Positions 1-25,456 of a stretch of DNA of 64,000 nt are shown one piece after another. Numbering within the stretch: the stretch's first letter is position 1; each line of letters begins with the position of its first letter. Source of the stretch: an uncultured bacterium (GTDB lineage Bacteria > Patescibacteriota > Minisyncoccia > Phycocordibacterales > Phycocordibacteraceae); assembly GCA_963851445.1 (NCBI GenBank), contig CAWKPH010000001.1, positions 617,363 to 681,362 of the forward strand. The letters run 5' to 3'. The position numbers and the translations under genes are program-made. The notes below the pieces were generated by a model. It saw nothing but the letters and a program-made list of their open reading frames with translations, was not told the origin of the DNA and made no database searches.

Positions 1-172
1 CTCCTTACATTCATATACATGGTCTAGTTTAGATAATTTTGGCACCCCTTTAAGTTATAACTCCGATTATTGGTTTAGATTTGTCATCTCACGCTTTTCT
101 TTTTTTGAGCCTGAGCATGTTCTTTATTTCTTTTATGTATTATCTTTTACAGTCTCTAGTTTTTTTACTTAT

Positions 173-3100: not shown

Positions 3101-3141
3101 AACCTTTACAGATGCCAGAAACTATAGCATAAATAAGCGTA

Positions 3142-3825: not shown

Positions 3826-3842
3826 GGGCATATAGTTAAATT

Positions 3843-5525
3843 ATGGCTTTCCTTAAGAAATTCCATTACGAGATTTTCGCGCTCATAGGCACAATGGTCG
3901 TGCTCTGGCAGATGCTTTTGCCTGGCTACGTGATAGTCCTCGATATGGTGTTCGGACCATATGTACCAATGCCGTCATTTGCGGGATTTTCAGCACCAAC
4001 ATTTCCGCACGAGTACCTGCTTTATCTTCTTCAGTTCATCTTGCCTGGATGGGTGACTGAGAAAGTTGTGCTCGCCGGGCTCTTCTTCTTATTGTTCTAC
4101 CTCCCCTTACATTTCTTTCCTTGGAAAAGCGGCAAGGGCGAGGAATACGTTGTCGCGCTTTTCTTTGCAATAAATCCATTCGTATATGAGCGACTGCTCG
4201 CAGGGCAGTGGGATGTGCTTTTCAGTTATGCATTGCTTTTCCCGTTCATCGCGCTCCTCATACGATTCCTCCAGAACCGTTCTTGGCGCTCTATCCTTTG
4301 GGCAAGCGTCTGGCTCTGGGCTATAAACCTTTTCTCGATACATGTGTTCGTGATGGGCGTGTTCGCGTGGGTGCTTGCGGCAGTTCTCGTACTCGCGTTT
4401 GACCTCGCACATGCCCATATTCCAAGCTTCAGGTTTAAGTTCACAAATACCTTCAAGAAACTCATTGCTGCGGGACTGCTTTTGCTCCTACTTTGTAGTT
4501 ATTGGATCGTACCCATCCTAACGGAGCACCAAGCAACCGCAACGCTTCAGTCCTTCACCCAAGGCGAGTGGCAGAGCTTCCGCACAGCCTCAGATCCTCA
4601 TATAGGCACGCTAGGGAACGTAGCGGCTCTCTACGGCTTCTGGAGCGAGCATGAGCACTCAAATACCTACTATTTCTCTCCAAAGGCTGATATGTGGGCG
4701 TGGGCTTTCTCAGGAATCCTGTTGACGATACTCCTACTCATCGGTCTCTCAAAAGGCTTGCTACATAGAAACACACGCTTGGGACTGCTCTGGCTCGTTG
4801 TACTCGGTATCGTCGCAGGCATCTTTTCCGCAGGAGTTGGTAGCCCGCTCACTGCGCCGATTAGCTGGTGGTTCTACAATCATTTTAGTTTCTGGAGCGG
4901 ATTCCGTGACACGGAAAAGTGGAGTGCTGTACTTGCTGCTGGATACGCACTAATGCTAGGAATCGGTGCTGGGTTCCTGCTCAAACACTCATACTTGAAA
5001 GGGAAGACTCGTCCGCTCCTTCTTGTTGCCCTATGTGCACTACCCGTCATCTACACGCCCACAATGCTTTTTGGTTTTGAAAATCAGTTGCAGCCAGTAT
5101 GGTATCCAGCAGGTTGGGCACCTGCGAATGCGATTCTCAAACAAGATCAATCTTGCGTCGCGGTCTTTCTTCCTTGGCACCAGTACTACACCGCGAACTT
5201 TACACATCGCACCCTCGCTGCGAACCCTTCCTATGATTATTTCAACTGTACCATCATCGGAAGCAACGATGCCGAGCTTGGCGACGTGGGTGAGCAGGTA
5301 AGTAATACTCCTTTCCCGGGCTATCAGCAGATAGATCAGGCCGTGGAATCAAACACAGCGAACCCAGACGCGACCGTAGAGCTCCTCAAGAGCTTAGGCG
5401 TCAAATACGTCATATTTACGCCAGATGAGGTCTTTGAGGACCCCTACCACTACCCGTTCTTGAGCTCCAAGCTGCTGGTCCCTCTTGTGCATAACCCAGC
5501 TATTGCGTTATATCGCATTATGTGA
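3843..5525 (+). CDS. large polytopic membrane protein (possible membrane glycosyltransferase-like), unknown function
   Basis: 560-aa ORF with more than 10 predicted TM helices followed by a C-terminal soluble domain. The architecture resembles GT-C-type or YfhO-like envelope proteins, but no motif was confirmed. Confidence 0.5.
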   Translation: MAFLKKFHYEIFALIGTMVVLWQMLLPGYVIVLDMVFGPYVPMPSFAGFSAPTFPHEYLLYLLQFILPGWVTEKVVLAGLFFLLFYLPLHFFPWKSGKGEEYVVALFFAINPFVYERLLAGQWDVLFSYALLFPFIALLIRFLQNRSWRSILWASVWLWAINLFSIHVFVMGVFAWVLAAVLVLAFDLAHAHIPSFRFKFTNTFKKLIAAGLLLLLLCSYWIVPILTEHQATATLQSFTQGEWQSFRTASDPHIGTLGNVAALYGFWSEHEHSNTYYFSPKADMWAWAFSGILLTILLLIGLSKGLLHRNTRLGLLWLVVLGIVAGIFSAGVGSPLTAPISWWFYNHFSFWSGFRDTEKWSAVLAAGYALMLGIGAGFLLKHSYLKGKTRPLLLVALCALPVIYTPTMLFGFENQLQPVWYPAGWAPANAILKQDQSCVAVFLPWHQYYTANFTHRTLAANPSYDYFNCTIIGSNDAELGDVGEQVSNTPFPGYQQIDQAVESNTANPDATVELLKSLGVKYVIFTPDEVFEDPYHYPFLSSKLLVPLVHNPAIALYRIM

Positions 5526-9921: not shown

Positions 9922-9938
9922 GGGAACCCGACCGCAAC

Positions 9939-13886: not shown

Positions 13887-14072
13887 ATGAAATTCTTAAC
13901 GAGAGAAGAAGTAGCCAAGTACCTGCGCGTGCATCCCCGCACCATCGAACGCTGGCTCAAAAGCGGGACCTTGAAGGGATATAAGCTAGGAACCGGAAAG
14001 ACTTCTTTGTGGCGAATATCGGAAGATGAGTTAAAGAAGTTTTTGGAGAAGAATAAAGCTAAACCAATATGA
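13887..14072 (+). CDS. small HTH DNA-binding protein (excisionase/MerR-like)
   Basis: 61 aa (LTREEVAKYLRVHPRTIERWLKSGTLKGYKLG), a typical HTH_17/Xis-like fold. Overlaps the recombinase start. Confidence 0.55.
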   Translation: MKFLTREEVAKYLRVHPRTIERWLKSGTLKGYKLGTGKTSLWRISEDELKKFLEKNKAKPI

Positions 14073-15787
14073 ACCAACCAACAACCATTCGTTATGACGT
14101 GTATCTGCGAAGGTCCAGCAGCGATGCAGAGGATAAGCAGGTTCAATCAATTCCCGACCAGCGACGGGAGCTGAACGAGTACATCGCAAGAAACAACCTC
14201 ACCATCGTCGGAGAGTTCGAGGAATCGCAAAGTGCTCACCATCCCGGCAGACCAGTGTTCAACGAGGTCATGGGGCGTATTGAGAAAGGAGTCTCGAACG
14301 GGTTGCTCGTGTGGCACGCCAATCGTACCTCAAGAAATCCTGTAGACAGCGGCGCTATTATCAACCTTATCGACGAAGGCAAGCTCTTTCATGTCAGAAC
14401 GCCTTCCCACATATACGGCAACACCTCTACAGAAAAGATGATGCTCGCGCTTGAGTGTATGATCGCCAAAAAGGACTCGGACGATAAGAGTGACGCGGTG
14501 AAGCGAGGGCTCCGTGGCCGCTACAAAAAAGGACTCCCGAACGGTGTTGCTCCCATCGGCTTCATTAACGATGTTTCCGTTGAGAAGGGCAATCGTGGCT
14601 GGCTCGTGGATGAGGAGAAGTTCCCGCTCATTGCTCAAGTCTTGGAACTCTTTCACACGGGCAAATATTCGACCAGAGCGTTGCTTCGAATCGCTAACGA
14701 TGAGATGGGACTGCGTACGCCGCAGCACAAGAAACAAGGTGGAAAGAAACTTGTGTATTCGCACTTTATGGAGACCGTGCTCCAGAATCCAGTGTATGCA
14801 GGATTCTTCTTTGCAGATACTGATACGGAAAAAGGTAAAAAGTTTGAACTCGATGCGAGAGTGCCGCGAGCTATCAGCGAGGAGACGTACTGGGAGAATC
14901 AGAAGATACTCGGAAACAAAGGACGAGCGCGACCTTCGAAGAACAAAACATCCTTCGCCTATGTTGGACCGACGACATGCGGCGGGTGCGATGGCGTGGT
15001 GACGGCCGAGCATAAGTACCAGGTCATTTGCGACTGTAAGCTCAAGTTCTATTATATGAATAAAACAGAGTGCCCGGGATGCGGCGTCGCGATAGATAAA
15101 ATGGTAAATCCGCTCTATCTCCACTACGTTTACTACCACTGCACCCGTACCAAAGATCCGACGTGCCGCGAGGGCAGCGTCCAGGAGCTCTACATCGACG
15201 ACACACTCGCTTCGTACTTCAAGGAGAACTTCAAAATCTCACAGTCCTTGCACGACTGGTGCATAGAGAACCTTGAGACCCTCGATATTAAGGATGCAAA
15301 GAATGATGTCGAGAAAACAGCATCGCTGGAGACCACGCTTTCCAAGAAGCAGCATGAGCAGAGGGAACTCGTGCTAATGAAGGCACGCGGACTTCTTGCT
15401 GACGATGCTGAGTTCCTTGAGTTGAAAGGCATCCTGAAGGCAGAAATTGACGTGCTAGAGCAAGCTTTGGCCAAGAATGGAAAACCTATAGACCCAGCGA
15501 AAATCAAGAAGGCTCGCAGAGCGTTTGACCTCTCCCTTGGTATAGAAGAAATCTTCAAAAGTGGTACCCCAGAGGAGAAAAAAGACACCCTACTGGAAAT
15601 CGGATCGAACCTAACTATAAAAGCCAAAACACTCACTGTTTACAACAGCGGAGTGTATAAAAAGATTATAGATGGCCTACTTACCGCCAAGGCGATAAAT
15701 CCTTCGTTCGAACCTGAAAATTGTGAGGCAGATGCTGAACGAAATCCTGTTTTTGCCTCTGTGTTTCCTACTCTGCTCCGCGGGTAG
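14069..15787 (+). CDS. large serine recombinase (resolvase N-domain + recombinase domain + zinc ribbon)
   Basis: Resolvase catalytic N-terminus (YDVYLRRSSSDAED…), then a recombinase domain and Cys-rich zinc ribbon (CGGCDG…CDC…CPGCG), then a coiled-coil tail. The stop codon lies inside the tRNA-derived repeat. Confidence 0.8.
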   Translation: MNQPTTIRYDVYLRRSSSDAEDKQVQSIPDQRRELNEYIARNNLTIVGEFEESQSAHHPGRPVFNEVMGRIEKGVSNGLLVWHANRTSRNPVDSGAIINLIDEGKLFHVRTPSHIYGNTSTEKMMLALECMIAKKDSDDKSDAVKRGLRGRYKKGLPNGVAPIGFINDVSVEKGNRGWLVDEEKFPLIAQVLELFHTGKYSTRALLRIANDEMGLRTPQHKKQGGKKLVYSHFMETVLQNPVYAGFFFADTDTEKGKKFELDARVPRAISEETYWENQKILGNKGRARPSKNKTSFAYVGPTTCGGCDGVVTAEHKYQVICDCKLKFYYMNKTECPGCGVAIDKMVNPLYLHYVYYHCTRTKDPTCREGSVQELYIDDTLASYFKENFKISQSLHDWCIENLETLDIKDAKNDVEKTASLETTLSKKQHEQRELVLMKARGLLADDAEFLELKGILKAEIDVLEQALAKNGKPIDPAKIKKARRAFDLSLGIEEIFKSGTPEEKKDTLLEIGSNLTIKAKTLTVYNSGVYKKIIDGLLTAKAINPSFEPENCEADAERNPVFASVFPTLLRG

Positions 15788-15808
15788 GATTCGAACCTAC
15801 GAACCTAC
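15775..15808 (-). repeat. att-like direct repeat: partial copy of tRNA 3' end (T-arm+acceptor)
   Basis: gctccgcgggtaggattcgaacctacgaacc matches gctccgcgggtagggatcgaacctacgacc at 24822-24851 (about 27/30). It contains the T-loop GGTTCGAATCC on the minus strand. Confidence 0.65.
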
Positions 15809-15937
15809 ATTTTCTGGGAATGGAAATCCATTTAGGAAGTACGGCAAATATCAAGTAAGTGCGAGAGATTATTAGCAAAAGTGCAATTACCACTGATACC
15901 CACACATCATCAAAACTAACCAACTCTTATCACTTCT

Positions 15938-15960
15938 AGGGCAACCCATGGGCAACCATG
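15938..15960. repeat. GGGCAACC tandem repeat (candidate integrase arm-type site), left arm
   Basis: gggcaacccatgggcaaccatgg, about 155 bp from the att core. A near-identical copy (gggcaacccgtgggcaaccactgg) lies at 24688-24712, about 130 bp from the other core. Confidence 0.45.
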
Positions 15961-16107
15961 GACATTACCAACAAAGAGCAGTACATCAGAGTGATAAAAG
16001 TTGAATCTTCAAACGCTGCTTCGCAGTGGTTCTTACTATTGCTGCTGGCTCAAACAATGCTCCCGCCCGGAAGCACGTTCTGTCCCAAGGAGCTATACTT
16101 AGACGTA

Positions 16108-16325
16108 TGAAAATGCACGAACTATTTTCCAAGACAGAGGTAGATGGACGTTTTGAAGCACAAATTGACATGGTTCTTGTGAACGGAAAAGAAATAAAAA
16201 AGGGGCAAAAAGTAGACCTCGATAGCTTAGGTCTTGATTCTTATTTTGACGACGAAGCTTCTGTAGGAGGCCAAATTGCAAATGGAGTGTTTTGTTGGAG
16301 TGGTACCGTACGCAGCGATGTTTGA
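16108..16325 (+). CDS. small hypothetical protein
   Basis: 72-aa ORF from an internal Met of the 16026..16325 ORF. No motif was recognised. Confidence 0.2.
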
Positions 16326-16330
16326 CCGTT

Positions 16331-17482
16331 CTATAATGGCTTTCTTACATCCGGACTTGGAACGTACCCGTAGTGCCTGAGAGCACCATTCAAAGTATTA
16401 AAGAACTCTGGATCAGGCGCAGGGTACTTTGGATGAGGAATAATCACACCCATACTCTCACCTTGCTCTGCCTCGTTCTCGCTCTGATAGTGATAAGAGA
16501 AGTTGGTAAAGAAAGCTGCATTTAAAGGATAGTCACCTGGGTCAAGTCCTTTTAGCTTTTTGGTTACCATCGTCTTTGCTTCTTGAACCCAAGGCTTTTC
16601 ATCCAATGCAACATTTGGAGTAGCAGGTAAGTTTACGTCTATGAAAATTGCGAAAGGAACGTCTTTCGGATTTTGAGTGAGGGCTTCGTTGAAAGTTCTT
16701 CTCATTCGTGCCGAGAGCTCTTCCACGGGGCTTCCTTCTTCGTGTATCACTCCAGCTCTGTGCTTGCTCTTAACCTCCACAGCGAGCGTAAAACCGGTTT
16801 CTCTGTGTTTAGCAACAAACTCACAATGCTTATTCTTACTATTTACATCTGTCCATTCGATGTCACAACCCATCCTTGAGAAAATAGCTGCTATTGCGAT
16901 TTCGTAACGAGCACCTTGATACTCTCGACGTGATTTCAAACGCTGAAGTAATGTCTCTGGCAATATGTTCTTCTGAACGAGACTGCTTACATCAAAAGCG
17001 AGCAAAAGTAATGATTTAACATACCCGTCCGGCATTGCGTTTAAGGGTCCATCTAAAGGTATGTTTCCTATACGTGCTCTCTCACGCAGTATCCACTCAC
17101 CAGTTTTTGCTAGGCATAAAGCGATGTAGTGCCGCTCATTGAGAGGAAGTTTCATTTGTTCTTCCCACCACTCGACTCCCAAGGTGCGTTTCAGCACATC
17201 CACTAAGAACTCATGGAAGGTCTGATTTACATCGTTAGAAGTGTAGATTGCACTTCCAAAAGCCCATACTTTCTTGCCATTAAAGATTACTGGCTCGACG
17301 TAGTGATCAAAGAGACCTGCTTGATGTCGAAGATCTCGTTCCGCTTGTTGTTTCTGGAAAAACTCGATAACTTCTTTGGGTATGGTAGGGGCAGGAGCCG
17401 TATCTTTATTCCAGCAACAATTTTTATACTTTATTCCGCTCCCGCAGTGACACGGAAGATTTCTGTCAGATCCTTTACCCAT
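16331..17482 (-). CDS. SEC-C motif-containing hypothetical protein
   Basis: N-terminal CHCGSGIKYKNCC (SEC-C metal-binding motif). The remaining ~350 aa have no recognisable catalytic motif. Confidence 0.55.
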   Translation of the reverse strand: MGKGSDRNLPCHCGSGIKYKNCCWNKDTAPAPTIPKEVIEFFQKQQAERDLRHQAGLFDHYVEPVIFNGKKVWAFGSAIYTSNDVNQTFHEFLVDVLKRTLGVEWWEEQMKLPLNERHYIALCLAKTGEWILRERARIGNIPLDGPLNAMPDGYVKSLLLLAFDVSSLVQKNILPETLLQRLKSRREYQGARYEIAIAAIFSRMGCDIEWTDVNSKNKHCEFVAKHRETGFTLAVEVKSKHRAGVIHEEGSPVEELSARMRRTFNEALTQNPKDVPFAIFIDVNLPATPNVALDEKPWVQEAKTMVTKKLKGLDPGDYPLNAAFFTNFSYHYQSENEAEQGESMGVIIPHPKYPAPDPEFFNTLNGALRHYGYVPSPDVRKPL

Positions 17483-17662
17483 ACCTACAATTTACTCCTT
17501 TTAACTCTTGATGCTAGGACGGGGAATGGCCTTCACTCCTATTATCTATATGAGAGTGTAGGGCAATCATTTTGTCTGAGAAGATTGTGACAGAACTTGA
17601 CAAAACACCTAAATATGTGTAATATCGTATACGGCTACAAGTCCCTTTACAAAAGGTTCAAC

Positions 17663-17751
17663 CAATCGAGACGAGCTTTTTACGGCTTACCTTCAGTGCG
17701 CAAGTTCTGGACGATTTTTACAACTAGGCCGTAAAAAGCTCGTCTCGATGT
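17663..17751. promoter_or_regulatory. long inverted repeat (21-bp stems: tcgagacgagctttttacggc / gccgtaaaaagctcgtctcga) in divergent intergenic region upstream of DGR target gene
   Basis: Perfect stems separated by about 38 nt. Located between the divergent genes 16331..17482(-) and 17761..18525(+). Confidence 0.45.
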
Positions 17752-17760
17752 GAGACAGAC

Positions 17761-18525
17761 GTGTCCGACGTATTCGGGCTATGGAGACCTTCGATGTCCA
17801 ACATCGACACTCTCGACAAGGCTACCAGTATTCTCGGCACCTGCATCAGGCTGGTGCGCTTGCTCGCTACGGGCGGCGCCACTATCGACCAGCTGCAAGC
17901 GCCCATCAGCATCAAGAGCAAGCGCGAAAACCTGCTGGCCTACCTCGCCGCCGACTGTCCCAAGTTCACGATCGAAGGCGGTGTCGCCATCGCTAAGGCG
18001 CCCAAAGCGCCGAAGCTTCCCGGCAGCGATCGCGTGAAAATCGTCAATAAGACGACCATCAAGGTCAACTGCGGTGCCGATTCCAAGCTCCCGTTCAACG
18101 GAGCCGTGATCGATACCAACTCGGGCGACCGCTGGGTCACGGTCCAAAAGCGCGGCGACGATCTCTATGTCGACGACGTGAAGGTCGACCTGCACCTCGA
18201 CGAAGGCCAGCAAAACGGCAAGGTGTTGCAAGGCCACAAGCTGCGCACCGCCCTCGCTAAGATGACGTCGGTTCATCCGAACGTCATCGACGCCGCCATC
18301 GAACATGGCCTGATGCCGGAAAGCTGGAAAGTGGATGAAAACGGCAAGACCCGCTTCATCTTCTCCTTCGCCGTCATCTTCCGCGACCCGACGCGCGACG
18401 ACCTGTGCGTCCGGTTCTGGTACTGGCGCGAGGGTCGCTGGCAGTCGAACTACCGCTGGCTCTACGATGGCTGGTACGGCATCAGCCCCACGGCCGTGCT
18501 CGGCAAGGTTGAACCTAAGGCCTAA
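17761..18525 (+). CDS. DGR target protein (putative C-type-lectin-fold variable protein) with C-terminal variable repeat
   Basis: The C-terminal ~40 codons (…DPTRDDLCVRFWYWREGRWQSNYRWLYDGWYGISPTAVLG) are homologous to the downstream TR. The region is markedly GC-rich. The real start may be the Met at 17797. Confidence 0.7.
   Translation: MSDVFGLWRPSMSNIDTLDKATSILGTCIRLVRLLATGGATIDQLQAPISIKSKRENLLAYLAADCPKFTIEGGVAIAKAPKAPKLPGSDRVKIVNKTTIKVNCGADSKLPFNGAVIDTNSGDRWVTVQKRGDDLYVDDVKVDLHLDEGQQNGKVLQGHKLRTALAKMTSVHPNVIDAAIEHGLMPESWKVDENGKTRFIFSFAVIFRDPTRDDLCVRFWYWREGRWQSNYRWLYDGWYGISPTAVLGKVEPKA
18379..18506 (+). repeat. DGR variable repeat (VR)
   Basis: 128 bp aligned with the TR at an offset of +521. 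About 16 mismatches, every one at a position where the TR has A. Confidence 0.8.
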
Positions 18526-18579
18526 GCTCCTCGGGTCTCTCAGACTCTTAGGACTTAGTTCTGCATTTTGGGCTCCGCA

Positions 18580-18625
18580 TTTCGTCATCGCGACGGGTGC
18601 GGAGCTTTTCTTTTGCACCACAAGG
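18580..18625 (+). terminator. GC-rich hairpin + T-run downstream of VR/target gene (terminator and/or DGR homing-associated stem-loop)
   Basis: gggctccgca…tgcggagc stem followed by ttttcttttg. It lies about 75 nt after the VR end. Confidence 0.45.
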
Positions 18626-18899
18626 GCATTTCTATTTCTAAATCGCTTCGCTCAAAACAAAATAATGTCATATAGTAGAAACGGTAGTAGGCGAGTACGG
18701 AAGCGATTACGGTTGCTTCCTGCCGAATCCAGTATCCATAGACCGAGAGCGTTTCTGATTACGATTTCAAACGGAGAGGTGTATGTAGAAACTTCAAAAA
18801 TGAAGATACTTGGTGCGAAGCGCTAGGGCATTGCGATGCCGAATACGATTCAACCCGGAGAGTACTCGATGGGTGGTGGCACAGATGGCGCTCCGCACA

Positions 18900-19027
18900 T
18901 TCCGCAACCCGACGAACGACAACCTGTACGTCCGGTACTGGTACTGGAACGAGGGTCGCTGGCAGTCGAACTACAACTGGCTCAACAATGACTGGAACGG
19001 CAACAACCCCACGGCCGTGCTCGGCAA
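18900..19027 (+). repeat. DGR template repeat (TR), non-coding
   Basis: Adenine-rich template (AAC codons in the VR frame). It differs from the VR only at TR adenines. The 3' 21 bp (ccccacggccgtgctcggcaa) are identical in VR and TR. Confidence 0.8.
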
Positions 19028-19033
19028 CTCTCT

Positions 19034-19423
19034 TCATTTCTCTCCCGTACTAACGGGAGAGTTTTGTTTCGTGAGTTGTCCGTTCCATCCGCCGAGCATT
19101 TTTCCAACGTCTTCGAGCGGGACAGACAAGATTGCGTATTTTTTCGTATCAAATGATTTCGTTTCCCAAAGCACCATGAGCAGCACTTTCAGAGTGTCGA
19201 GCTTGCGTATCGCAAGTCGCACGTACGGTTGCTTTTCATTTCGCGCGAGGAAACCAGCACAGGCTATCGCTTCTATGATTTCAATAAAGAGAGTGTCCAC
19301 GCGTTCGCCCGAACTATACCGATGTATCTTCGGAATCGTCTGGTAAAATCCACACCATAGGACATATGTCGATTTCACACGCTCTAACACTGGTAAAAGG
19401 TTCGGGGGGGGGGGTACTTTCAT
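19034..19423 (-). CDS. avd: Avd-like accessory variability determinant (four-helix-bundle protein), encoded on the opposite strand
   Basis: 129 aa. The pattern LERVKSTYVLWCGFYQTIPKIHRYS…LDTLKVLLMVLWE…ILSVPLEDVGKMLGGW resembles bAvd/PF05635 four-helix-bundle proteins. The N-terminal poly-Pro is encoded by a poly-G/C homopolymer. Confidence 0.65.
   Translation of the reverse strand: MKVPPPPNLLPVLERVKSTYVLWCGFYQTIPKIHRYSSGERVDTLFIEIIEAIACAGFLARNEKQPYVRLAIRKLDTLKVLLMVLWETKSFDTKKYAILSVPLEDVGKMLGGWNGQLTKQNSPVSTGEK
19403..19414. repeat. homopolymeric G tract (~10-12 nt) inside the avd start region / upstream of RT
   Basis: tcgggggggggggtac, seen directly. The exact length is ambiguous in my reading (the ORF coordinates imply 11-12 G). 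Confidence 0.6.
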
Positions 19424-19428
19424 AGGTT

Positions 19429-20127
19429 ATGGATTGTATTCAGTATACGGATACATACGAGAATATCATCTCCGTGGAGAATCTCCTTGAAGCGTGGCGG
19501 GAGTTTAAAAGAGGCAAAAAGCATCGCGCTGATGTGCAGCATTTCGAGAGGAACCTGTTATCCCACGTACTGAATCTGCATGAAGACCTGTCCGTTATGC
19601 GATACGTGCATGACGGATACGAAGCATTCCGCATCACCGATCCGAAGCCGCGAGACATACACAAGGCAAGCGTACGGGACAGGCTCCTCCATCATGCAAT
19701 TTATCGAAAGCTCTACCCATTCTTTGACCGCGTGTTCATAAGCGACTCGTATTCATGCAGGAAGGATAAGGGCTCGCATAAGGCGCTCGCGCGCTTCCGT
19801 GCTTATGCCTATAAAGCCTCATCAAACCACATGCGTACCGTATGGATTCTGAAATGTGACATACGAAAGTTCTTCGCTTCGATAGACCATGGAGTGCTAG
19901 TGAATATTCTGAAGCGGTATATCCCCGACGAACGCATCATGTGGCTGTTCGGACAGGTGATCATGAGCTTCAACACTGAGCGGCAGGGAACAGGGCTTCC
20001 GCTAGGCAACCTCACCTCGCAGCTCTTGGTGAATGTGTACATGAACGATTTCGACCAGTTCGCAAAACATAACCGGTATGCTGTTTTTAGTCTTCCTCAT
20101 CACTGTGATATGGCGAGGAATGAATAA
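19429..20127 (+). CDS. DGR-type reverse transcriptase, apparently truncated (fingers/palm motifs 1-4 present; YxDD not found)
   Basis: The RT motifs are present: ILKCDIRKFFASIDH and …GLPLGNLTSQLLVNVYMNDFDQF. The ORF stops about 20 aa later (…KHNRYAVFSLPHHCDMARNE*) without a YADD box, and no continuing frame was found. Confidence 0.65.
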   Translation: MDCIQYTDTYENIISVENLLEAWREFKRGKKHRADVQHFERNLLSHVLNLHEDLSVMRYVHDGYEAFRITDPKPRDIHKASVRDRLLHHAIYRKLYPFFDRVFISDSYSCRKDKGSHKALARFRAYAYKASSNHMRTVWILKCDIRKFFASIDHGVLVNILKRYIPDERIMWLFGQVIMSFNTERQGTGLPLGNLTSQLLVNVYMNDFDQFAKHNRYAVFSLPHHCDMARNE

Positions 20128-20413
20128 CCTAGAAGCACTCTCACCCCTGAATGAGGATGAACTCAAGGGTCCAGAATGGAGGAATCCCAAGTCATTCAGC
20201 AAGGCCAGATGGACCATACCGATACTATGGATCGGGACGCTGGGCATGTTGATACTTGCCTGGGATGGAATTGGAAATGACTTTTCATCGCAACCTGTGA
20301 TTACATGGTCCATTCTCATACTTTTCTTCGGCACTATGTGGTATCGGGGGGCGCATGAATTGCCACCTTTCACCCTTTCAAGCCTATAAAGGCCATTTGT
20401 TATAATAGAAAAT

Positions 20414-21217
20414 ATGCCACTTCCCCTCGATCTCGTCCTCGTCCGCCACGGCCAGTCTGAGGGCAATGCCGCGAAGCGCATGTCTGAGCAGGGAGACAAT
20501 ACTGCATACGACCTCTTGGCTAATCGCCACACGCGAAGCTATCGCCTTTCGGACCTCGGAAGGGACCAGGCCATGAAAGCCGGATTCTGGATCCAGAGGG
20601 AGTTCATTAGGCTTGATAAGAAGCCAATGTTCGACCGCTACATCACTTCTGAATACAACCGCGCGATGGAGACAGCGGCCCTCCTCGATATCCCGAACGC
20701 TGAATGGTTCCGGAACTTCTATTTAACAGAACGCTCATGGGGCGACCTCGAAGACTGTCCTGAAGACGAGCGCCAAGAGAAGTTTGGTGCTGCTCTCAAG
20801 ATGCGGGTTATCGAGCCTTTCTTTTGGCGACCTCCCAACGGCGAATCCTTCGCTGAGCTCTGCTTGCGCCTTGATCGCGTCCTCGACACCCTCCATCGGG
20901 AAAACAGCGATCAACGGGTTATCATCGTCTGTCATGGCGAAGTGATGCGCGCTTTCCGTGTTCTGCTTGAGCGCATGCCGCAGCAGAAGTTTAAGGAACA
21001 ATACCTTTCCAAGGAGAAGGACGATGCCATCTTCAACTGCGAGATCTTTCACTACACACGCAAGGATCCGAAGACGGGCGAAATTGCGGACCATGCCAAC
21101 TGGATGCGGCGTGTACGCCCTAATGAGGCACCTGTATGGGATACGGGATGGCAGACGATCAAACGTCCGCGTTATTCCAATGAGGAATTGCTGGATATCG
21201 CAAGAAAGATAGGATAG
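20414..21217 (+). CDS. histidine phosphatase superfamily (phosphoglycerate-mutase-like) protein
   Basis: N-terminal LVLVRHGQSEGN signature (the RHG motif). 267 aa. Confidence 0.7.
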   Translation: MPLPLDLVLVRHGQSEGNAAKRMSEQGDNTAYDLLANRHTRSYRLSDLGRDQAMKAGFWIQREFIRLDKKPMFDRYITSEYNRAMETAALLDIPNAEWFRNFYLTERSWGDLEDCPEDERQEKFGAALKMRVIEPFFWRPPNGESFAELCLRLDRVLDTLHRENSDQRVIIVCHGEVMRAFRVLLERMPQQKFKEQYLSKEKDDAIFNCEIFHYTRKDPKTGEIADHANWMRRVRPNEAPVWDTGWQTIKRPRYSNEELLDIARKIG

Positions 21218-21240
21218 GATTCCCAGACTAATCCGATGCC

Positions 21241-22035
21241 ATGAATGCAAGGCCTAATCCTGAGATACATATTCCCGAGTTTAAAATACTTGAGAACATT
21301 AATGAAAATGAGGTTAGCAACGCTCTTAATGAGCTTATTGAACTAGGAGGAAACATCACTAACTACAGTCAGAAGTACATTGCAGATGCACATGTCAGCA
21401 TTAATCCATATTTCTACGACGACCTCAGACAATTTTTCATATCTTGGCGAGGTTGCGCAAGGCGAATCCTGAGAAATGCAGGAGAGGCCTTTATGGACGA
21501 AAGTGAGGTCATGGATGAATCAGACAGCATTCCTTTTTTCTCAGTGATAGATGAGAAGCGAGATTCTTACTCAGTAGATACTCAAGAATTGATCTCTGGT
21601 ATACAGCGCGAAACCTCTCGACGACTGGAAACACTACATAAAGCAAGGGGAAAAATCATTGAACAGGAAAATGAGAAAGTTAAGACTAATACACCTATAG
21701 CTTACAATCATTTAACGAGTGAGTTATATGTACGTGGTATTCCCGTACTTATTAATGCGAGAATGACATTAGGAAGTTCAGGGAATAAAGAAACAGAGAT
21801 GCTGGCGATTCTTTTCAACCAGCCAACGAAATCAATGCCTTGTGATGATTTCTGGATGGAGTGGCAGTCTTTTGAAAATAAAGAGGCATATGAGCAAAAA
21901 GCAAAGAAAAACTGGACATCGATATATCAAGCAGCAAATAGGATTAATAAGAAAGTTAGCTATCTCACAAGCAGGAAAAAGCTTATAGATGTGACAAAAT
22001 ATCAGGTTTCGATTCATGTAGAATACCAATCTTAG
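21241..22035 (+). CDS. hypothetical protein
   Basis: 264-aa ORF with no recognisable motif. Located within element B. Confidence 0.45.
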   Translation: MNARPNPEIHIPEFKILENINENEVSNALNELIELGGNITNYSQKYIADAHVSINPYFYDDLRQFFISWRGCARRILRNAGEAFMDESEVMDESDSIPFFSVIDEKRDSYSVDTQELISGIQRETSRRLETLHKARGKIIEQENEKVKTNTPIAYNHLTSELYVRGIPVLINARMTLGSSGNKETEMLAILFNQPTKSMPCDDFWMEWQSFENKEAYEQKAKKNWTSIYQAANRINKKVSYLTSRKKLIDVTKYQVSIHVEYQS

Positions 22036-22078
22036 TTAGCTAACTCTTCGTAACTAGTTTTCTATACGATGGCTCACA

Positions 22079-23374
22079 ATGAGTCAGGAGAAACCATATT
22101 CGCCAAATATCTCTATCGACCCTCTTATTTCGATAGATCCTCGCACTGTTAACCCCTTCAAGCTACCTGATGATTTAGGGTGGGTAGAGGAGTTAGGAAA
22201 GAGTCGGGAGGTTGTACAAGAGATCTCTCATGACGATAAAAAATCACAAGCAGTTCTCACGCGTCTTTCAGATATAACCTCAAGGGCGGTTAGCTGGCTT
22301 TGGCATGAGCGTATCGCGCTTGGGAAGCTCACTATTATCTCTGGGGATCCTGGCCTCGGAAAGAGCTTGTTGACCGCGACAATGGCGGCGATTGTTTCAA
22401 AGGGCGGCTCGTGGCCGCTTGAAGAAACCCCATGTCCAATTGGAAGCGTCGTATTACTTTCTGCTGAAGATGATCCAGCAGACACTATCAAGCCTCGTTT
22501 GGAAGCTGTAAGCGCTGATTGCGAACGCATTCACATACTGCAAGCCATTAAGGACATTGATTCAGCAGGAAATCCCACAGAACGCATGTTTTCACTTAAG
22601 CGTGATATTGCTCTGCTCGAAGACTTACTCCTTTCCTTGCCAGATTGTCGCCTCATCGTTATTGATCCAATCTCAGCGTATCTAGAAGGTGCAGATAGTC
22701 ATAAGAACAGCGACGTTCGAGGACTGCTAGCTCCACTTGCCAAGTTCGCGTCAAATCATAATGTTGCAGTCGTTTTAGTTCAACACTTAAACAAAAACAG
22801 CGGAGGAAGCGCTATGTATCGCTCGATGGGTTCTGTGGCGTTCGTTGCTGCCGTACGAGCTGCATACGTCGTTATTAAAGATCAGAATGACCCCGAGCGA
22901 CGGCTCGTGATGCCGGTCAAGAATAATCTCGCAACAGACAATACTGGTTTGGCTTACTCGGTTCATAACGCAGATAATGGTGCACCAGTCATCGCATGGG
23001 AGAACGAAGCGATAACCATAACAGCAGATGAGGCACTTACTCCGTTAGATTCTAATGTGGAGAAAACAGACACTGATTGGGCCATAGATTTTTTGGAAGG
23101 TGAGCTTTCTGACGGTCCTGTACCAGTTGCTGAAATCAACAAAAGTGCAAAGCAAGTTGGTGTGTCACCAAAATGTCTAAGACGTGCAGCAGAAAAGCTC
23201 GGAATCAAGAGGAAGAAAGATGGCTTCAATAAAGGCTGGGTATGGTCGTTGCCTAGGCACGAAGATGCCCAAGAATACGAAGATGCCCACCTTCAAAACG
23301 AGGGCATCTTGGGAGCAGAAGGGCATCTTCGAAAGGAGATAGGAGATTTAATCGTAAAGGAGGGTTTGGTATGA
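22079..23374 (+). CDS. RepA-like RecA-fold ATPase (AAA_25-type) replication/primase-helicase loader protein of mobile element
   Basis: Walker A motif ISGDPGLGKSLLTATMAA, Walker-B-like RLIVIDPISAYL, then a C-terminal winged-helix-like region. Typical of ICE/plasmid RepA proteins. Confidence 0.65.
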   Translation: MSQEKPYSPNISIDPLISIDPRTVNPFKLPDDLGWVEELGKSREVVQEISHDDKKSQAVLTRLSDITSRAVSWLWHERIALGKLTIISGDPGLGKSLLTATMAAIVSKGGSWPLEETPCPIGSVVLLSAEDDPADTIKPRLEAVSADCERIHILQAIKDIDSAGNPTERMFSLKRDIALLEDLLLSLPDCRLIVIDPISAYLEGADSHKNSDVRGLLAPLAKFASNHNVAVVLVQHLNKNSGGSAMYRSMGSVAFVAAVRAAYVVIKDQNDPERRLVMPVKNNLATDNTGLAYSVHNADNGAPVIAWENEAITITADEALTPLDSNVEKTDTDWAIDFLEGELSDGPVPVAEINKSAKQVGVSPKCLRRAAEKLGIKRKKDGFNKGWVWSLPRHEDAQEYEDAHLQNEGILGAEGHLRKEIGDLIVKEGLV

Positions 23375-23616
23375 TTAAGGTACCCGTCGGTGCTGCCGAT
23401 GATGTACTGCACTTTGAAAACAATTTCGAAGGTTTCTCTCTCACGCTGTTGACCATACCTGAAGTAGCGAAGTTTCTTAGAATCTCATCTACTGGAGTGA
23501 GACGCTTACAAGAACGGCGAATTATTCCCTTCATCAAGGTTGGTGGCAGTGTGCGCTTTCTCAAAGAAGACATTCTTTCTTATTTGCGAAGGCAGCGAGT
23601 GGAATCCATCGAGTAA
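23371..23616 (+). CDS. excisionase/HTH DNA-binding protein
   Basis: 81 aa (LTIPEVAKFLRISSTGVRRLQERRIIPFIKVGGSVRF), a helix-turn-helix of the Xis/MerR type. Sits directly upstream of the integrase. Confidence 0.55.
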   Translation: MIKVPVGAADDVLHFENNFEGFSLTLLTIPEVAKFLRISSTGVRRLQERRIIPFIKVGGSVRFLKEDILSYLRRQRVESIE

Positions 23617-23626
23617 TAGATGATAT

Positions 23627-24769
23627 ATGGCAGTACGAATGATTAAAAAATCGTGGTGGGTGGACATACGCTTCAATCACAGACGATATCGAAAGCGAAG
23701 TCCTGAAAACTCAAAGGCAGGCGCTCAGGCCTATGAAGCTGTCTTGCGACAGAAACTGGCACGAGGAGAGGAAATAGAGAAAACCCAGCTCGTCTTATCG
23801 AAAGAAGAATCGTTTGAGACCTTTGCTTGGAAGTGGTATGACGAATACGTTATACCAAACAACAAGTACTCGACGCAGCAAATGAAGAAGTACATTCTGG
23901 CTGGCTCCCTGATTCCTTTCTTCGGAAAGATACCTGTCCGAAAGATTACCTCGCACCATATAGATCAATTCAAGGCACATTGCCTTAAAAAGGATTCGAG
24001 CCATAAAACAGTGAATAATCATCTTGGGATATTGAGTAAGCTCCTCATGACTGCATATGAATGGATGGAACTTGAATCTGTACCTCCTAAAATAAAACCA
24101 CTCAAATGCCTACCGCCTAGGACAGACTATCTCTCGGCAGAGGAATGTCAGCTGCTCCTATCACACTCGCAAGGTGTGATTCATGAGATGATTCTCACCG
24201 CGTTGCGGACAGGAATGCGACAAGGTGAACTGAAAGGTCTTCAGTGGACTTCAATTGAGTGGGAAAATCGCAATGTGGTGGTGCGACATTCCCAAGATGA
24301 TTATCGCAAGGTACTTGGCACGCCAAAAAGCAACCGAGAACGCAATATCCCTCTAGATATTGATGTATACGAAACGTTCCTGAAGAAAAAAGCTACAGTT
24401 GGGTACGTATTCCTAACTGCTAAAGGAAAACTCTTCACCCATGACCGTATGACAGTCGCAATAGCTCGAGTATGCAAAAAGGTTGGACTACGAAAAATTG
24501 GCTGGCACACGTTACGCCACACCTTCGCAACTCAGCTCGCCACGAAAGGCGTTCCGTTAACAACAATTCAATCACTTCTAGGCCACTCAAGCATCTCTAC
24601 CACCATGAGATACGCGCATGTTGCGCCTTCAACAATGCGGTCAGCAATAGATCTCTTGAGCCCGAGAACGGCCATCCCGATGGATTTTGGGCAACCCGTG
24701 GGCAACCACTGGCTTGCGTCGCTCGACAAAGAAGCGGAAGAGAAAACCCTTAAGGCTAAAAACCCATGA
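23627..24769 (+). CDS. int: tyrosine integrase (phage integrase family) adjacent to tRNA att site
   Basis: …LTALRTGMRQGELKGLQW… GWHTLRHTFATQLATKG… LGHSSISTTMRYAHV (R…HxxR…Y catalytic pattern). Ends 55 bp from the tRNA 3' end. Confidence 0.8.
   Translation: MAVRMIKKSWWVDIRFNHRRYRKRSPENSKAGAQAYEAVLRQKLARGEEIEKTQLVLSKEESFETFAWKWYDEYVIPNNKYSTQQMKKYILAGSLIPFFGKIPVRKITSHHIDQFKAHCLKKDSSHKTVNNHLGILSKLLMTAYEWMELESVPPKIKPLKCLPPRTDYLSAEECQLLLSHSQGVIHEMILTALRTGMRQGELKGLQWTSIEWENRNVVVRHSQDDYRKVLGTPKSNRERNIPLDIDVYETFLKKKATVGYVFLTAKGKLFTHDRMTVAIARVCKKVGLRKIGWHTLRHTFATQLATKGVPLTTIQSLLGHSSISTTMRYAHVAPSTMRSAIDLLSPRTAIPMDFGQPVGNHWLASLDKEAEEKTLKAKNP
24688..24712. repeat. GGGCAACC tandem repeat (candidate arm-type site), right arm, inside int 3' end
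   Basis: gggcaacccgtgggcaaccactgg. Matches 15938-15960 at 22/24 positions. Confidence 0.45.
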
Positions 24770-24862
24770 GTTTACTTGGTGAAAACGACAAACACCACGT
24801 AATGTGGTGTTTGTCAAGTCGAGCTCCGCGGGTAGGGATCGAACCTACGACCAACTCGTTAC

Positions 24863-25415
24863 ATCGCTCCTCTCGTTACCGTGAGGGATGGACTATATCA
24901 TCATCGGTTCTCGATGCGAGGCGCTTCCCAAATCGCCATTGCGATTAAGTACTCCCTTACGGGATAGTCTCTACACCTTCCGAGATTTTGATCTCGGCTT
25001 GGCTCGGGATCGCCCATCCTTCGATATTCGACGGATTAGGGTTTCCCCGAATTCACCTCGTTTTTCATCCAGAATTCCTTCTGAAAGCTGCGTGATGCCA
25101 TCGTGTACTTCGGCGTGACAATTTGCGCAAAGTAATACGCATTTTTCCAATTCAGCCAGCATCTTTCCCCACGACCTTGTAAGGCCCCTCACCGAAAGAC
25201 CGAAATCTTTCTTTGAAGGATCTAGGTGATGGAATACCATTGCTCGTCTAGATCGGTCATATCCGCATAAAATGCACTTGCCTCCACCGTATTCGAGAGC
25301 CATATCGCGAAGTTTTTTACGCCTTGCAGAAACAGCTTTCTTCAAATATTCGGCACGATCAGCATAGGTTCGCCTTTCTGGCATATACACATGAATATAC
25401 CATTGGGCTTGTCCA
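24863..25415 (-). other. ~550-nt intervening sequence in tRNA anticodon loop (putative self-splicing group I-type intron) carrying an HNH homing-endonuclease ORF
   Basis: The inferred exon/intron junctions obey group I rules (5' exon ends in U, insert ends in G). The intron class was not verified structurally. Confidence 0.45.
24971..25390 (-). CDS. HNH endonuclease (homing-endonuclease-like) inside tRNA intron
   Basis: CILCGYDRS…FHHLDPSKKDF…LLCANCHAEVH (Cys pairs plus HNH catalytic histidines). A basic C-terminal tail. Confidence 0.7.
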   Translation of the reverse strand: MYMPERRTYADRAEYLKKAVSARRKKLRDMALEYGGGKCILCGYDRSRRAMVFHHLDPSKKDFGLSVRGLTRSWGKMLAELEKCVLLCANCHAEVHDGITQLSEGILDEKRGEFGETLIRRISKDGRSRAKPRSKSRKV

Positions 25416-25456
25416 CAGCGAGCCGCTCTACCACTGAGCTACCGCGGAATACTATT

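What the first reader, a model, noticed from the sequence alone, without database searches (positions are those of the whole stretch)
17761..20127. Diversity-generating retroelement with adenine-specific VR/TR divergence, inverted avd and truncated RT
The 3' end of ORF 17761..18525 (VR, 18379-18506) and a non-coding copy 521 bp downstream (TR, 18900-19027) align without gaps. They differ at about 16 positions. At every one of them the TR base is A and the VR base is C, G or T, which is the mutagenic-retrohoming signature of DGRs. An avd-like four-helix-bundle gene and an RT with DGR-type motifs (GLPLGNLTSQ…VNVYMNDFD) complete the cassette. Two features are atypical: avd sits on the opposite strand between TR and RT, and the RT ends before the YxDD box. 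The target region is also much more GC-rich than its surroundings.
Basis: partly seen in the sequence, partly recalled or inferred. Interest (0 to 1): 0.85.

Follow-up and report, generated by a model that had tools for sequence, protein, structure and literature searches.

The report
Recently disabled CPR-type diversity-generating retroelement
This is a genuine diversity-generating retroelement of the layout usual in Patescibacteria (CPR), carried on a small tRNA-integrated mobile element, whose reverse transcriptase gene has just lost its catalytic half, so this copy is ordinary in kind and probably frozen.

Summary
VR 18379-18506 and TR 18900-19027 align without gaps and differ at 16 positions, all adenines in TR. 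Avd and the reverse transcriptase (RT) are DGR-type.

Two of the three "atypical" features are normal for the clade:
- In 101 of 102 related Patescibacteria loci avd is inverted between TR and RT. This is the published architecture B3.
- The target gene is GC-richer than the RT in 54 of 55 loci.

The RT truncation is real and recent. A public contig (L039) matches window 15770-20074 with no mismatch and continues into a full 328-aa RT with its YADD box. The window switches to unrelated DNA at 20074/20075. The cassette lies on a ~9-kb element bounded by tRNA-derived repeats. Its closest relatives have lost the RT, or the whole cassette apart from the target gene.

Verdict: a freshly inactivated member of a known kind.

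The most interesting by-product is a simple-sequence repeat at the avd 5' end (G11 here, G13 in L039). It is present in 60 of 72 related sequence clusters. It varies in length between otherwise identical contigs and toggles the avd reading frame. It could be a phase-variable switch on DGR activity. That is untested.

The parts
15775..15802 (.). Left att-like direct repeat: a copy of the 3' end of the tRNA at 24823-24850, marking the left boundary of the ~9-kb integrated element
   Evidence: A 28-nt repeat matching at 26 of 28 positions, with 0 matches in 100 shuffles. The independent contig L039 starts 5 nt before it.
17597..17625 (+). Promoter-like site upstream of the target gene (TTGACA-17-TAATAT)
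   Evidence: Consensus scan, 10 of 12 positions matched. This is a consensus match only.
17665..17749 (+). Long leader hairpin (about 26 bp) in front of the target gene
   Evidence: Fold dG -50.7 kcal/mol, z -7.1. It is kept in L036 and L037 with at least 5 compensatory pair changes. Function unknown.
17761..18525 (+). DGR target gene (254 aa from GTG 17761). The likely true start is ATG 17794, judged from alignment with homologs.
   Evidence: ORF list. Homologs at 54-58% identity. AlphaFold model with pLDDT above 93 for residues 90-250. It belongs to a large unannotated family of 3028 representatives.
18379..18506 (+). Variable repeat (VR), which encodes the C-terminal 42 residues of the target
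18486..18506 (+). IMH-like (initiation of mutagenic homing) GC-rich 3' end of VR, identical in TR (CCCCACGGCCGTGCTCGGCAA)
   Evidence: The role is inferred by analogy with the Bordetella phage DGR.
18523..18557 (+). Hairpin immediately downstream of VR, starting at the stop codon
   Evidence: Fold. It is analogous in position to the post-IMH inverted repeat of known DGRs (inference).
18570..18616 (+). Terminator-like hairpin plus T tract that ends the target transcript
18900..19027 (+). Template repeat (TR), with 34 adenines and 11 AAY codons
19028..19069 (+). Conserved TR 3' motif (CTCTCTTCATTT), terminator-like hairpin 19040-19061 and TTTTGTTT. This is the probable 3' end of the TR RNA and lies antisense to the 3' coding end of avd.
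   Evidence: dG -27.2, z -6.1. An equivalent hairpin plus T tract follows TR in 43 of 53 related loci, against 5% of random windows, and the stem sequences differ between loci.
19034..19423 (-). avd (129 aa), inverted between TR and RT
   Evidence: Pfam bAvd 1.2e-7 and NCBIfam DivGenRetAVD 1.8e-14. The same position and strand are seen in 101 of 102 related loci.
19404..19414 (.). G11 homopolymer (C11 on the avd strand, codons 4-7 of avd, directly after ATG-AAA-GTA), 14 nt upstream of the RT start codon
   Evidence: It is the only difference from L039 (G13) across about 4.3 kb. An SSR sits at this site in 60 of 72 related clusters, and its length is polymorphic in 8 of 15 multi-member clusters.
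19429..20074 (+). RT gene, codons 1-215 (N-terminal extension, fingers and part of the palm, including LGNLTSQ). The catalytic YADD box and the thumb are missing.
   Evidence: It is identical to residues 1-215 of the 328-aa protein P0142.
20075..20127 (+). Out-of-family tail of the RT ORF up to its stop codon. The first 18 nt (20075-20092) are junction-specific DNA found in neither L039 nor L122.
20093..24822 (+). Right-hand module of the integrated element: most of an orphan ORF (20078-20389), histidine phosphatase, a hypothetical gene, an AAA_25 ATPase, an HTH_17 excisionase-like gene and a tyrosine integrase
   Evidence: Pfam. The orphan ORF has no homolog among 5.8e9 proteins. It is 100% identical to the separate contig L122 over 20093-24852.
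24823..24850 (-). Right att repeat, which is the 3' end of a tRNA gene (about 24824-25448, minus strand) split by a group I intron

Best explanation
What it is. This is a Patescibacteria (CPR)-type diversity-generating retroelement with the clade's standard layout: target gene with a 3' VR, then TR, then inverted avd, then RT. It is carried on a ~9-kb element integrated at the 3' end of an intron-containing tRNA gene.

How an intact copy would work (inferred by analogy with the Bordetella phage DGR):
- TR is transcribed as its own short RNA, which ends at a conserved hairpin plus U tract. That hairpin lies antisense to the 3' end of avd.
- The RT-Avd complex copies this RNA into cDNA and misincorporates opposite adenines.
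- The cDNA replaces VR, recoding up to 34 positions in the last 42 residues of a small binding protein.

What happened here. That process ran in the past: 16 of 16 VR/TR differences are at TR adenines, and there are none at the 94 non-adenine positions. The RT gene has since been cut after codon 215 by a deletion or rearrangement that joined it to unrelated DNA at 20074/20075. This removed the YADD catalytic box and the thumb.

The event is very recent. A contig from another assembly matches the 4.3 kb to the left without a single substitution and carries the full 328-aa RT.

This copy therefore cannot make cDNA on its own, and its VR is frozen unless another RT acts in trans.
For: Shown by tool results:
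- A-specific VR/TR divergence, with mismatches restricted to codon positions 1 and 2.
- The RT fragment is 65-72% identical to 325-340-aa CPR RTs and stops before YADD. There is no RT remnant elsewhere in the window.
- The full-length allele P0142 has its best solved relative in 8ub7_A (1.7e-38), against 7.8e-18 for group II intron RTs.
- Avd family hits.
- The same layout and A-bias across relatives: avd inverted next to the RT in 101 of 102 loci, and 948 of 1023 VR/TR mismatches at TR adenines in 55 loci. The published B3 architecture matches (PMC5758913).
- L039 positions 1-4307 equal window 15770-20074, with 0 mismatches and one 2-nt homopolymer indel. L039 then continues with LKAEYYIRYADDF... 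while the window continues with unrelated DNA.
- L122 equals window 20093-24852 at 100%.
- att repeats, a tyrosine integrase and an intron-containing tRNA bound the element.
- A terminator-like hairpin follows TR in 43 of 53 loci.
- Relatives form a decay series: L036 keeps target, TR and avd but has no RT, L037 keeps only the target, and L030 and L034 have truncated RTs.

Inferred, not shown: the cDNA pathway, the transcript ends, and that a truncated RT is catalytically dead. The last point follows from the established requirement for the YxDD aspartates in reverse transcriptases.
Against: - Only 64 kb of a 687,765-bp contig is visible, so a second RT elsewhere in the genome cannot be excluded.
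- The complete absence of non-adenine VR/TR differences is also what continued activity would give.
- The junction rests on a single assembly, and no reads were available.
- VR is identical in the window and L039, so there is no direct sign of recent diversification in either.
Confidence: 0.8

Rival explanations
1. The cassette is still active because a second, intact DGR reverse transcriptase elsewhere in the same genome, or in a co-resident element, acts in trans on this TR RNA together with the intact Avd.
For: - All cis elements and avd are intact. avd is in frame with G11.
- VR and TR agree at all 94 non-adenine positions.
- Genomes with several DGR copies exist. One Adlerbacteria MAG carries three (L018, L019, L033).
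- Published surveys report remote targets served by one RT (PMC4891356).
Against: - No RT is present in the 64-kb window.
- The perfect non-adenine agreement is explained just as well by the recency of the deletion, given 0 substitutions in 4.3 kb against L039.
- VR is identical in the window and L039.
- In studied systems DGR RTs are cognate to their own RNA (Handa et al.).
Confidence: 0.1
2. The truncation is an assembly artefact, or reflects a minority allele. The real dominant genome would carry the L039-type intact RT, and the contig joins two places wrongly.
For: - An independent assembly (Logan, ERR11630394) gives the intact RT on L039 and puts the right-hand module on a separate contig, L122.
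- The first base of L122 differs from the window.
- Contigs in that sample break at the att repeats, which suggests population heterogeneity.
Against: - There is no repeat at the junction that could mislead an assembler.
- The window has 18 nt at 20075-20092 found in neither L039 nor L122. That argues for a real junction sequence.
- Degenerate RTs occur independently in related genomes (L030, L034, L036).
Confidence: 0.1
3. This is not a DGR. The repeat is an ordinary duplication or gene-conversion tract next to an unrelated retron or group II intron-type RT fragment.
For: NCBIfam's best-scoring models for the RT are group II intron, Drt and retron models. All are far below their cut-offs, and the library has no DGR RT model that matched.
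Against: - All 16 mismatches are at TR adenines (p about 6e-10).
- Avd is present.
- The cassette is syntenic with about 100 loci that show the same A-bias.
- The best solved relative of the full-length allele scores 20 orders of magnitude better than group II intron RTs.
Confidence: 0.01

Closest known systems
CPR/Patescibacteria DGRs of architecture B3, TR-(avd)-RT (Wu et al. 2018, NAR, PMC5758913; Roux et al. 2021 'DGR clade 2', PMC8144416)
   Same: - Gene order and strands match.
- The target is a small ORF of about 200-250 aa with a C-terminal VR of 110-140 nt.
- TR ends a few nt from the avd stop codon.
- The RT is 60-72% identical.
- Mismatches are A-specific.
- The target gene is GC-rich.
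- A hairpin plus T tract follows TR.

   Different: - The RT lacks everything after codon 215.
- This copy lies on a tRNA-integrated element with a tyrosine integrase. For CPR DGRs the literature says mobile-element association could not be judged.
Bordetella phage BPP-1 DGR (mtd-avd-TR-brt), the experimental prototype
   Same: - The parts list matches: VR, TR, Avd and RT.
- Mutagenesis is adenine-specific.
- AAY codons are used.
- VR has a GC-rich, IMH-like end followed by a hairpin.
- The full-length allele's best solved relative is 8ub7_A, a 328-aa chain labelled 'Reverse transcriptase'. From memory I believe this is bRT of the bRT-Avd-RNA complex. I did not verify that here.
   Different: - avd is on the opposite strand and downstream of TR.
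- The RNA 3' of TR is therefore antisense avd, with a short hairpin/terminator in place of the 140-nt spacer.
- The context is cellular, not phage.
- The target fold is not demonstrably Mtd-like.
RT-less DGR remnants, for example Treponema denticola isolates that keep target genes but lack TR and RT (Nimkulrat et al. 2016, PMC4891356)
   Same: The DGR machinery is lost while the diversified target gene is kept. This lineage shows the same series: window (RT truncated), L036 (RT gone), L037 (target only).
   Different: Here the loss is caught at its first step. TR, avd and 215 RT codons are still intact, and an intact sister allele is available.
Simple-sequence-repeat contingency loci (phase variation by slipped-strand mispairing, as in Neisseria, Campylobacter and Haemophilus)
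   Same: - A homopolymer or dinucleotide tract lies directly after a start codon.
- Its length differs between otherwise identical sequences.
- The alleles alternate between a full-length and a truncated ORF.

   Different: - The gene controlled would be the accessory factor of a targeted hypermutator.
- The organisms are uncultured CPR bacteria.
- Switching within a clone has not been shown.

Membership tests
Diversity-generating retroelement (DGR) | A TR/VR repeat pair whose differences fall at TR adenines | tested here: met
   All 16 of 16 mismatches are at TR adenines, in 128 ungapped nt.
Diversity-generating retroelement (DGR) | VR lies at the 3' end of a protein-coding target gene, with the variable adenines at codon positions 1 and 2 | tested here: met
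   VR ends 16 nt before the stop codon of ORF 17761-18525. All 16 mismatches are at codon position 1 or 2, and TR holds 11 AAY codons.
Diversity-generating retroelement (DGR) | An RT of the DGR clade | tested here: met
   - 65-72% identity to the RTs of cassettes that show A-biased TR/VR pairs.
- The LGNLTSQ motif is present.
- The full-length allele hits 8ub7_A at 1.7e-38.
- No curated DGR RT profile was available in Pfam or NCBIfam.
Diversity-generating retroelement (DGR) | An intact, catalytically competent RT (YxDD box and thumb) | tested here: not met
   The ORF leaves the family after residue 215. YADD is absent here and everywhere else in the window. The intact allele is found only on L039.
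Diversity-generating retroelement (DGR) | The Avd accessory protein | tested here: met
   NCBIfam NF033474 at 1.8e-14 (53.9 bits, cut-off 80) and Pfam PF22296 at 1.2e-7 (32.6 bits, cut-off 40). Both are sub-threshold, but synteny in 101 of 102 loci corroborates them.
Diversity-generating retroelement (DGR) | Ongoing diversification (VR heterogeneity in the population) | not testable with these tools
   No reads were available. VR is identical in the window and L039. A relative's population (the L002 cluster) does show 19 and 2 VR differences, all at TR adenines.
Diversity-generating retroelement (DGR) | A C-type lectin (or Ig) fold that displays the variable residues | tested here: inconclusive
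CPR DGR architecture B3, TR-(avd)-RT | TR upstream of an avd gene on the opposite strand, which abuts the RT start | tested here: met
   TR ends 6 nt from the avd stop codon, and the avd start is 5 nt from the RT start. The published definition is in PMC5758913.
tRNA-integrating element with a tyrosine integrase | An integrase next to a tRNA gene, with a direct repeat of the tRNA 3' end at the far boundary | tested here: met
   The integrase (23627-24769) lies 54 nt from the tRNA 3' end. The 28-nt repeat occurs at 15775 and 24823. Independent contigs end at both repeats.
SSR contingency locus (phase variation) | A simple-sequence repeat within the 5' coding region or promoter of the gene | tested here: met
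   C11 lies directly after ATG-AAA-GTA of avd. An SSR sits at the same site in 60 of 72 clusters, while background G/C runs of 7 or more number 4 in 445 kb.
SSR contingency locus (phase variation) | Tract length varies between otherwise identical sequences and switches the ORF on and off | tested here: met
   8 of 15 multi-member clusters are polymorphic, with 0-2 mismatches in 901 flanking nt. Two of these involve dinucleotide repeats. In 5 clusters one allele gives a 120-142-aa Avd from an ATG and the other stops after 13-40 aa.
SSR contingency locus (phase variation) | High-frequency, reversible switching within a clone, with a phenotype | not testable with these tools
   This needs read-level or experimental data. 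The link between frame state and VR diversification is unclear: L085 and L086 diversify without an in-frame ATG, although an in-frame TTG exists.

The most novel reading that the evidence does not exclude
The simple-sequence repeat at the 5' end of avd (G11 at 19404-19414 here) may be a hypermutable switch that turns Avd, and with it DGR mutagenesis, on and off in CPR bacteria. An alternative is that Avd synthesis depends on slippage at the tract. Either way, a contingency locus would control a targeted hypermutator, letting a lineage freeze a useful variant and reopen diversification in a subpopulation.

At the same site related loci carry G7-13, (GT)7-18, (GA)5-13, (TC)17 or a 7-mer repeated six times.

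I found no paper in the held library that links DGRs or avd to SSR phase variation. I could not read Paul et al. 2017.
Probability: 0.4. Interest if true: 0.75.

Novelty: new member of a known kind. Interest (0 to 1): 0.4.

Why it matters
As a DGR the locus adds little. It is one more member of the abundant Patescibacteria clade, and a broken one.

Its value is as a dated snapshot. An intact allele and a truncated allele of the same element are both available, with no substitution between them over 4.3 kb. Close relatives show the later stages of loss. Together they show how DGRs decay while the diversified target gene is kept. They also place a CPR DGR on a defined tRNA-integrating mobile element.

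Two clade-wide features that emerged bear on how the inverted-avd layout works and how it is controlled:
- TR has its own terminator-like hairpin, embedded antisense in avd.
- A length-polymorphic repeat lies at the avd start.

The second feature, if confirmed, would make the open question of how DGR activity is switched off directly testable.

Tried and rejected
- Looking up the source record by exact protein (P0001, P0141) found nothing on record. All relatives are Patescibacteria.
- No similar DNA was found in the phage collection. A viral-contig scan with the AAA_25 protein gave one 32% relative, which I did not pursue.
- RNAalifold on a MAFFT alignment of the TR 3' flanks predicted no structure, because stems of different length and sequence were not in register. 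I replaced it with a per-sequence hairpin plus T-tract count with controls.
- A brute-force ARAGORN search over exon joins could not fix the tRNA identity. Asn(GUU) is only inferred, from the U/G splice-site rule.
- A PDB sequence search with Avd gave no hit, so the identity of 8ub7 as bRT could not be cross-checked that way.
- The afdb50 fold library was unavailable.
- Paul et al. 2017 (PMC5436926) is not held.
- I rejected the idea that the G tract is the RT's ribosome-binding site. In several loci a separate GGAG-like motif lies between the tract and the ATG, and in others the tract is replaced by GT, GA, TC or 7-mer repeats.
- I considered 'no in-frame ATG' as a clean OFF marker and found it too strict. 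24 of 60 SSR clusters have only an in-frame GTG or TTG in at least one member and no in-frame ATG in any. One such pair, L085 and L086, differs at 21 positions in VR.
- In one population (the L002 cluster, 7 contigs) the tract is invariant at G10.
Full report
**Observation.** VR 18379-18506 and TR 18900-19027 are 128 nt long, ungapped and 521 nt apart.
- They differ at 16 positions. At every one TR has A and VR has G, T or C.
- TR holds 34 A in 128 nt, so the chance of this pattern is about 6e-10.
- All 16 positions are first or second codon positions of ORF 17761-18525. TR read in that frame has 11 AAY codons.
- The last 21 nt of the repeat are identical and GC-rich, as expected for an IMH-like end.
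- A hairpin (18523-18557) and a terminator-like hairpin (18570-18616) follow VR.

**Components.**
- The minus-strand ORF 19034-19423 hits Pfam bAvd (1.2e-7) and NCBIfam 'DGR protein Avd' (1.8e-14). Both scores are below the curated cut-offs.
- The ORF 19429-20127 covers only positions 10-143 of the 205-position RVT_1 profile.
- This ORF is 65-72% identical to thousands of 325-340-aa RTs. All sources that name them place them in Patescibacteria.
- In an alignment with ten of these RTs it follows the family up to FDQFAKHN (residue 215). It then diverges and stops, before the invariant RYADDF box.
- tblastn with full-length relatives finds no C-terminal piece anywhere in the 64-kb window.

**The 'atypical' layout is the clade's normal layout.** I collected 32 loci from species-representative genomes and 75 from metagenomes, together with contigs fetched for individual protein hits.
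- Of 102 loci that show the RT start with enough upstream DNA, 101 have avd on the opposite strand directly upstream of the RT.
- TR ends a few nt from the avd stop codon. VR lies 230-580 nt upstream of TR, at the 3' end of a small ORF.
- Across 55 non-redundant loci, 948 of 1023 VR/TR mismatches are at TR adenines.
- Wu et al. 2018 define this as architecture B3, TR-(avd)-RT, and state that it accounts for 90% of CPR DGRs (PMC5758913).
- The GC-rich target is also general. The target body averages 0.54 GC, against 0.42 for avd and 0.40 for the RT. It is richer than the RT in 54 of 55 loci. I have no explanation for this.

**How the inverted layout can work.**
- In 43 of 53 non-redundant loci a perfect hairpin followed by a T tract lies 5-40 nt after TR. 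The same test is positive for 8 of 53 stretches after VR and 53 of 1060 random windows. The stem sequences differ between loci.
- In the window this element is at 19040-19061 plus TTTTGTTT (dG -27, z -6.1). It sits inside the last codons of avd, on the other strand.
- My inference is that TR is a separate short transcription unit whose 3' structured end overlaps avd in antisense. This end would take the place of the 140-nt spacer that primes cDNA synthesis in the Bordetella phage element. That role is not shown.

**The RT truncation.**
- The 90%-identity cluster of the truncated protein contains a second member, P0142. It is 328 aa long and identical for residues 1-215. It continues LKAEYYIRYADDF... 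through the thumb.
- Its contig, L039 (9,598 bp, from the Logan assembly of ERR11630394), aligns to window 15770-20074 with no mismatch. The single difference is a 2-nt indel in a G homopolymer.
- Homology ends exactly at 20074/20075.
- Downstream of the RT, L039 carries a small ORF, a DUF4238 gene and four further ORFs without a significant Pfam match. None of these is in the window.
- A second contig from the same sample, L122, equals window 20093-24852 at 100%. Its first base differs from the window.
- The 18 nt at 20075-20092 occur in neither contig.
- The orphan ORF at 20078-20389 has no homolog other than itself among 5.8 billion proteins.
- The simplest reading is a recent deletion of at least 5.3 kb with a short filler. 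This deletion removed the catalytic part of the RT.
- A misassembly or a mixed population cannot be excluded without reads. However, there is no repeat at the junction that could cause a false join.

**Genomic context.**
- A 28-nt direct repeat (15775-15802 and 24823-24850, 26 of 28 identical) is the 3' end of a minus-strand tRNA gene. That gene is split by a group I intron (Rfam, 65.5 bits), which carries an HNH-like ORF.
- A tyrosine integrase and an HTH_17 excisionase-like gene lie next to the tRNA.
- L039 begins 5 nt before the left repeat, and L122 ends 2 nt after the right one.
- The DGR therefore lies on an integrated element of about 9 kb here. In the ERR11630394 sample the element is at least 14 kb.

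**Decay series.**
- The closest target homologs are 54-58% identical in protein and 76-81% identical in DNA across target, TR and avd.
- L036 keeps the target, VR, TR (18 of 18 mismatches at A) and avd, but has no RT at all.
- L037 keeps only the target gene, between core aminoacyl-tRNA synthetase genes.
- L030 and L034 have truncated RTs, and L033 has a frameshifted one.
- Loss of the machinery with retention of the targets is known from Treponema denticola (PMC4891356).

**Target protein.**
- No Pfam or NCBIfam family matches it.
- A profile built from 21 homologs finds 3,028 representative proteins. Most are 150-280 aa, and the match usually runs to the C-terminus.
- The AlphaFold model is confident for residues 90-250.
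- A lectin-like fold is therefore plausible but not shown.

**By-product: a repeat at the avd start.**
- The only difference between the window and L039 is G11 against G13 at 19404-19414. On the avd strand this tract directly follows ATG-AAA-GTA.
- With C11 the 129-aa Avd is in frame. With C13 the ORF stops after 13 codons.
- The 102 related loci group into 72 near-identity clusters. Of these, 51 have poly-G of 7-13 at this site. Nine have another repeat: (GT)7-18, (GA)5-13, (TC)17 or a 7-mer repeated six times. Twelve have none.
- Elsewhere in these loci, G or C runs of 7 or more number 4 in 445 kb.
- In 8 of 15 clusters with several members the tract length differs while the 901 flanking nt have 0-2 mismatches. 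Two of these clusters involve dinucleotide repeats, which are not prone to homopolymer sequencing error.
- In five clusters one allele links an upstream ATG to a full-length Avd of 120-142 aa. The other allele truncates it.
- An in-frame ATG before Avd helix 1 is present in 9 of 11 repeat-less clusters. Among 60 repeat-bearing clusters, 9 have it in all members and 6 more are mixed (Fisher p = 2.7e-5).

**Caveats on the repeat.**
- Homopolymer lengths may be misassembled.
- One population has an invariant G10 across seven contigs.
- 24 of the 60 repeat-bearing clusters have only an in-frame GTG or TTG in at least one member and no in-frame ATG in any. One such pair shows 21 A-specific VR differences.
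- Frame state and activity are therefore not cleanly linked. Phase variation or slippage-dependent expression of Avd remains a hypothesis.
- I found no paper connecting DGRs with such repeats.

**Verdict.** The element is a member of a known and abundant kind. Its one true peculiarity is a recent inactivating deletion in the RT. Interest in the locus itself is low. The clade-wide repeat at the avd start deserves follow-up.

Noticed in passing
window 19404-19414, and the same site in L001-L120: A simple-sequence repeat lies at the avd 5' end, just upstream of the RT start. It is G11 here and G13 in the otherwise identical L039. It is present in 60 of 72 related clusters, as poly-G, GT, GA, TC or 7-mer repeats. 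Its length is polymorphic in 8 of 15 multi-member clusters, and it toggles the avd reading frame.
   Followed up: yes
window 17665-17749; L036 9869-9959; L037 about 9935-10010: A 26-bp hairpin lies in the leader of the target gene (dG -50.7, z -7.1). It is conserved in two related loci with at least 5 compensatory changes, including the locus that has lost TR, avd and RT. Its function is unknown.
   Followed up: partly
window 17761-18525, and targets in 55 related loci: The whole target gene, not only VR, is much more GC-rich than avd and the RT of the same cassette (mean +13.8 points, 54 of 55 loci). This is unexplained.
   Followed up: partly
window 17779-18621 (minus strand); L039 2010-2819: The high GC content creates a long antisense ORF over the target gene. 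In L039 the gene caller annotated that antisense ORF and not the target. This probably explains why no near-identical copy of the target protein is in the protein collection.
   Followed up: partly
window 24824-25448 (minus strand): A tRNA gene is interrupted by a group I intron (Rfam, 65.5 bits) that carries an HNH-like ORF (sub-threshold Pfam hit). Its 3' end serves as the attachment site of the integrated element. The tRNA is probably Asn(GUU), but that is not certain.
   Followed up: partly
L036 10001-11541; L037 10001-10765: The closest relatives of the target gene sit in a cassette that has lost the RT (L036) and as an orphan gene between aminoacyl-tRNA synthetase genes (L037). Together with the window they form a decay series.
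   Followed up: yes
L040-L045 (the CP066687.1 population); L085/L086: Contigs with identical TR, avd and RT differ only in VR, by 19, 2 and 21 positions, all at TR adenines. Several assemblies break inside VR. This is direct evidence that related DGRs are active in natural populations.
   Followed up: partly
window 14069-15802: A large serine recombinase gene, preceded by an HTH_17 gene, ends inside the left att repeat of the element. A 20-nt stretch at 15939-15958 resembles the 3' end of the tyrosine integrase gene (24689-24708). This hints at earlier insertions at this site.
   Followed up: no
L039 4647-4879 compared with window 16087-16320: The intact element has a second copy of the small ORF region, 81% identical, directly downstream of its RT. 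Paralogous small genes therefore flank the SEC-C gene plus DGR block.
   Followed up: no
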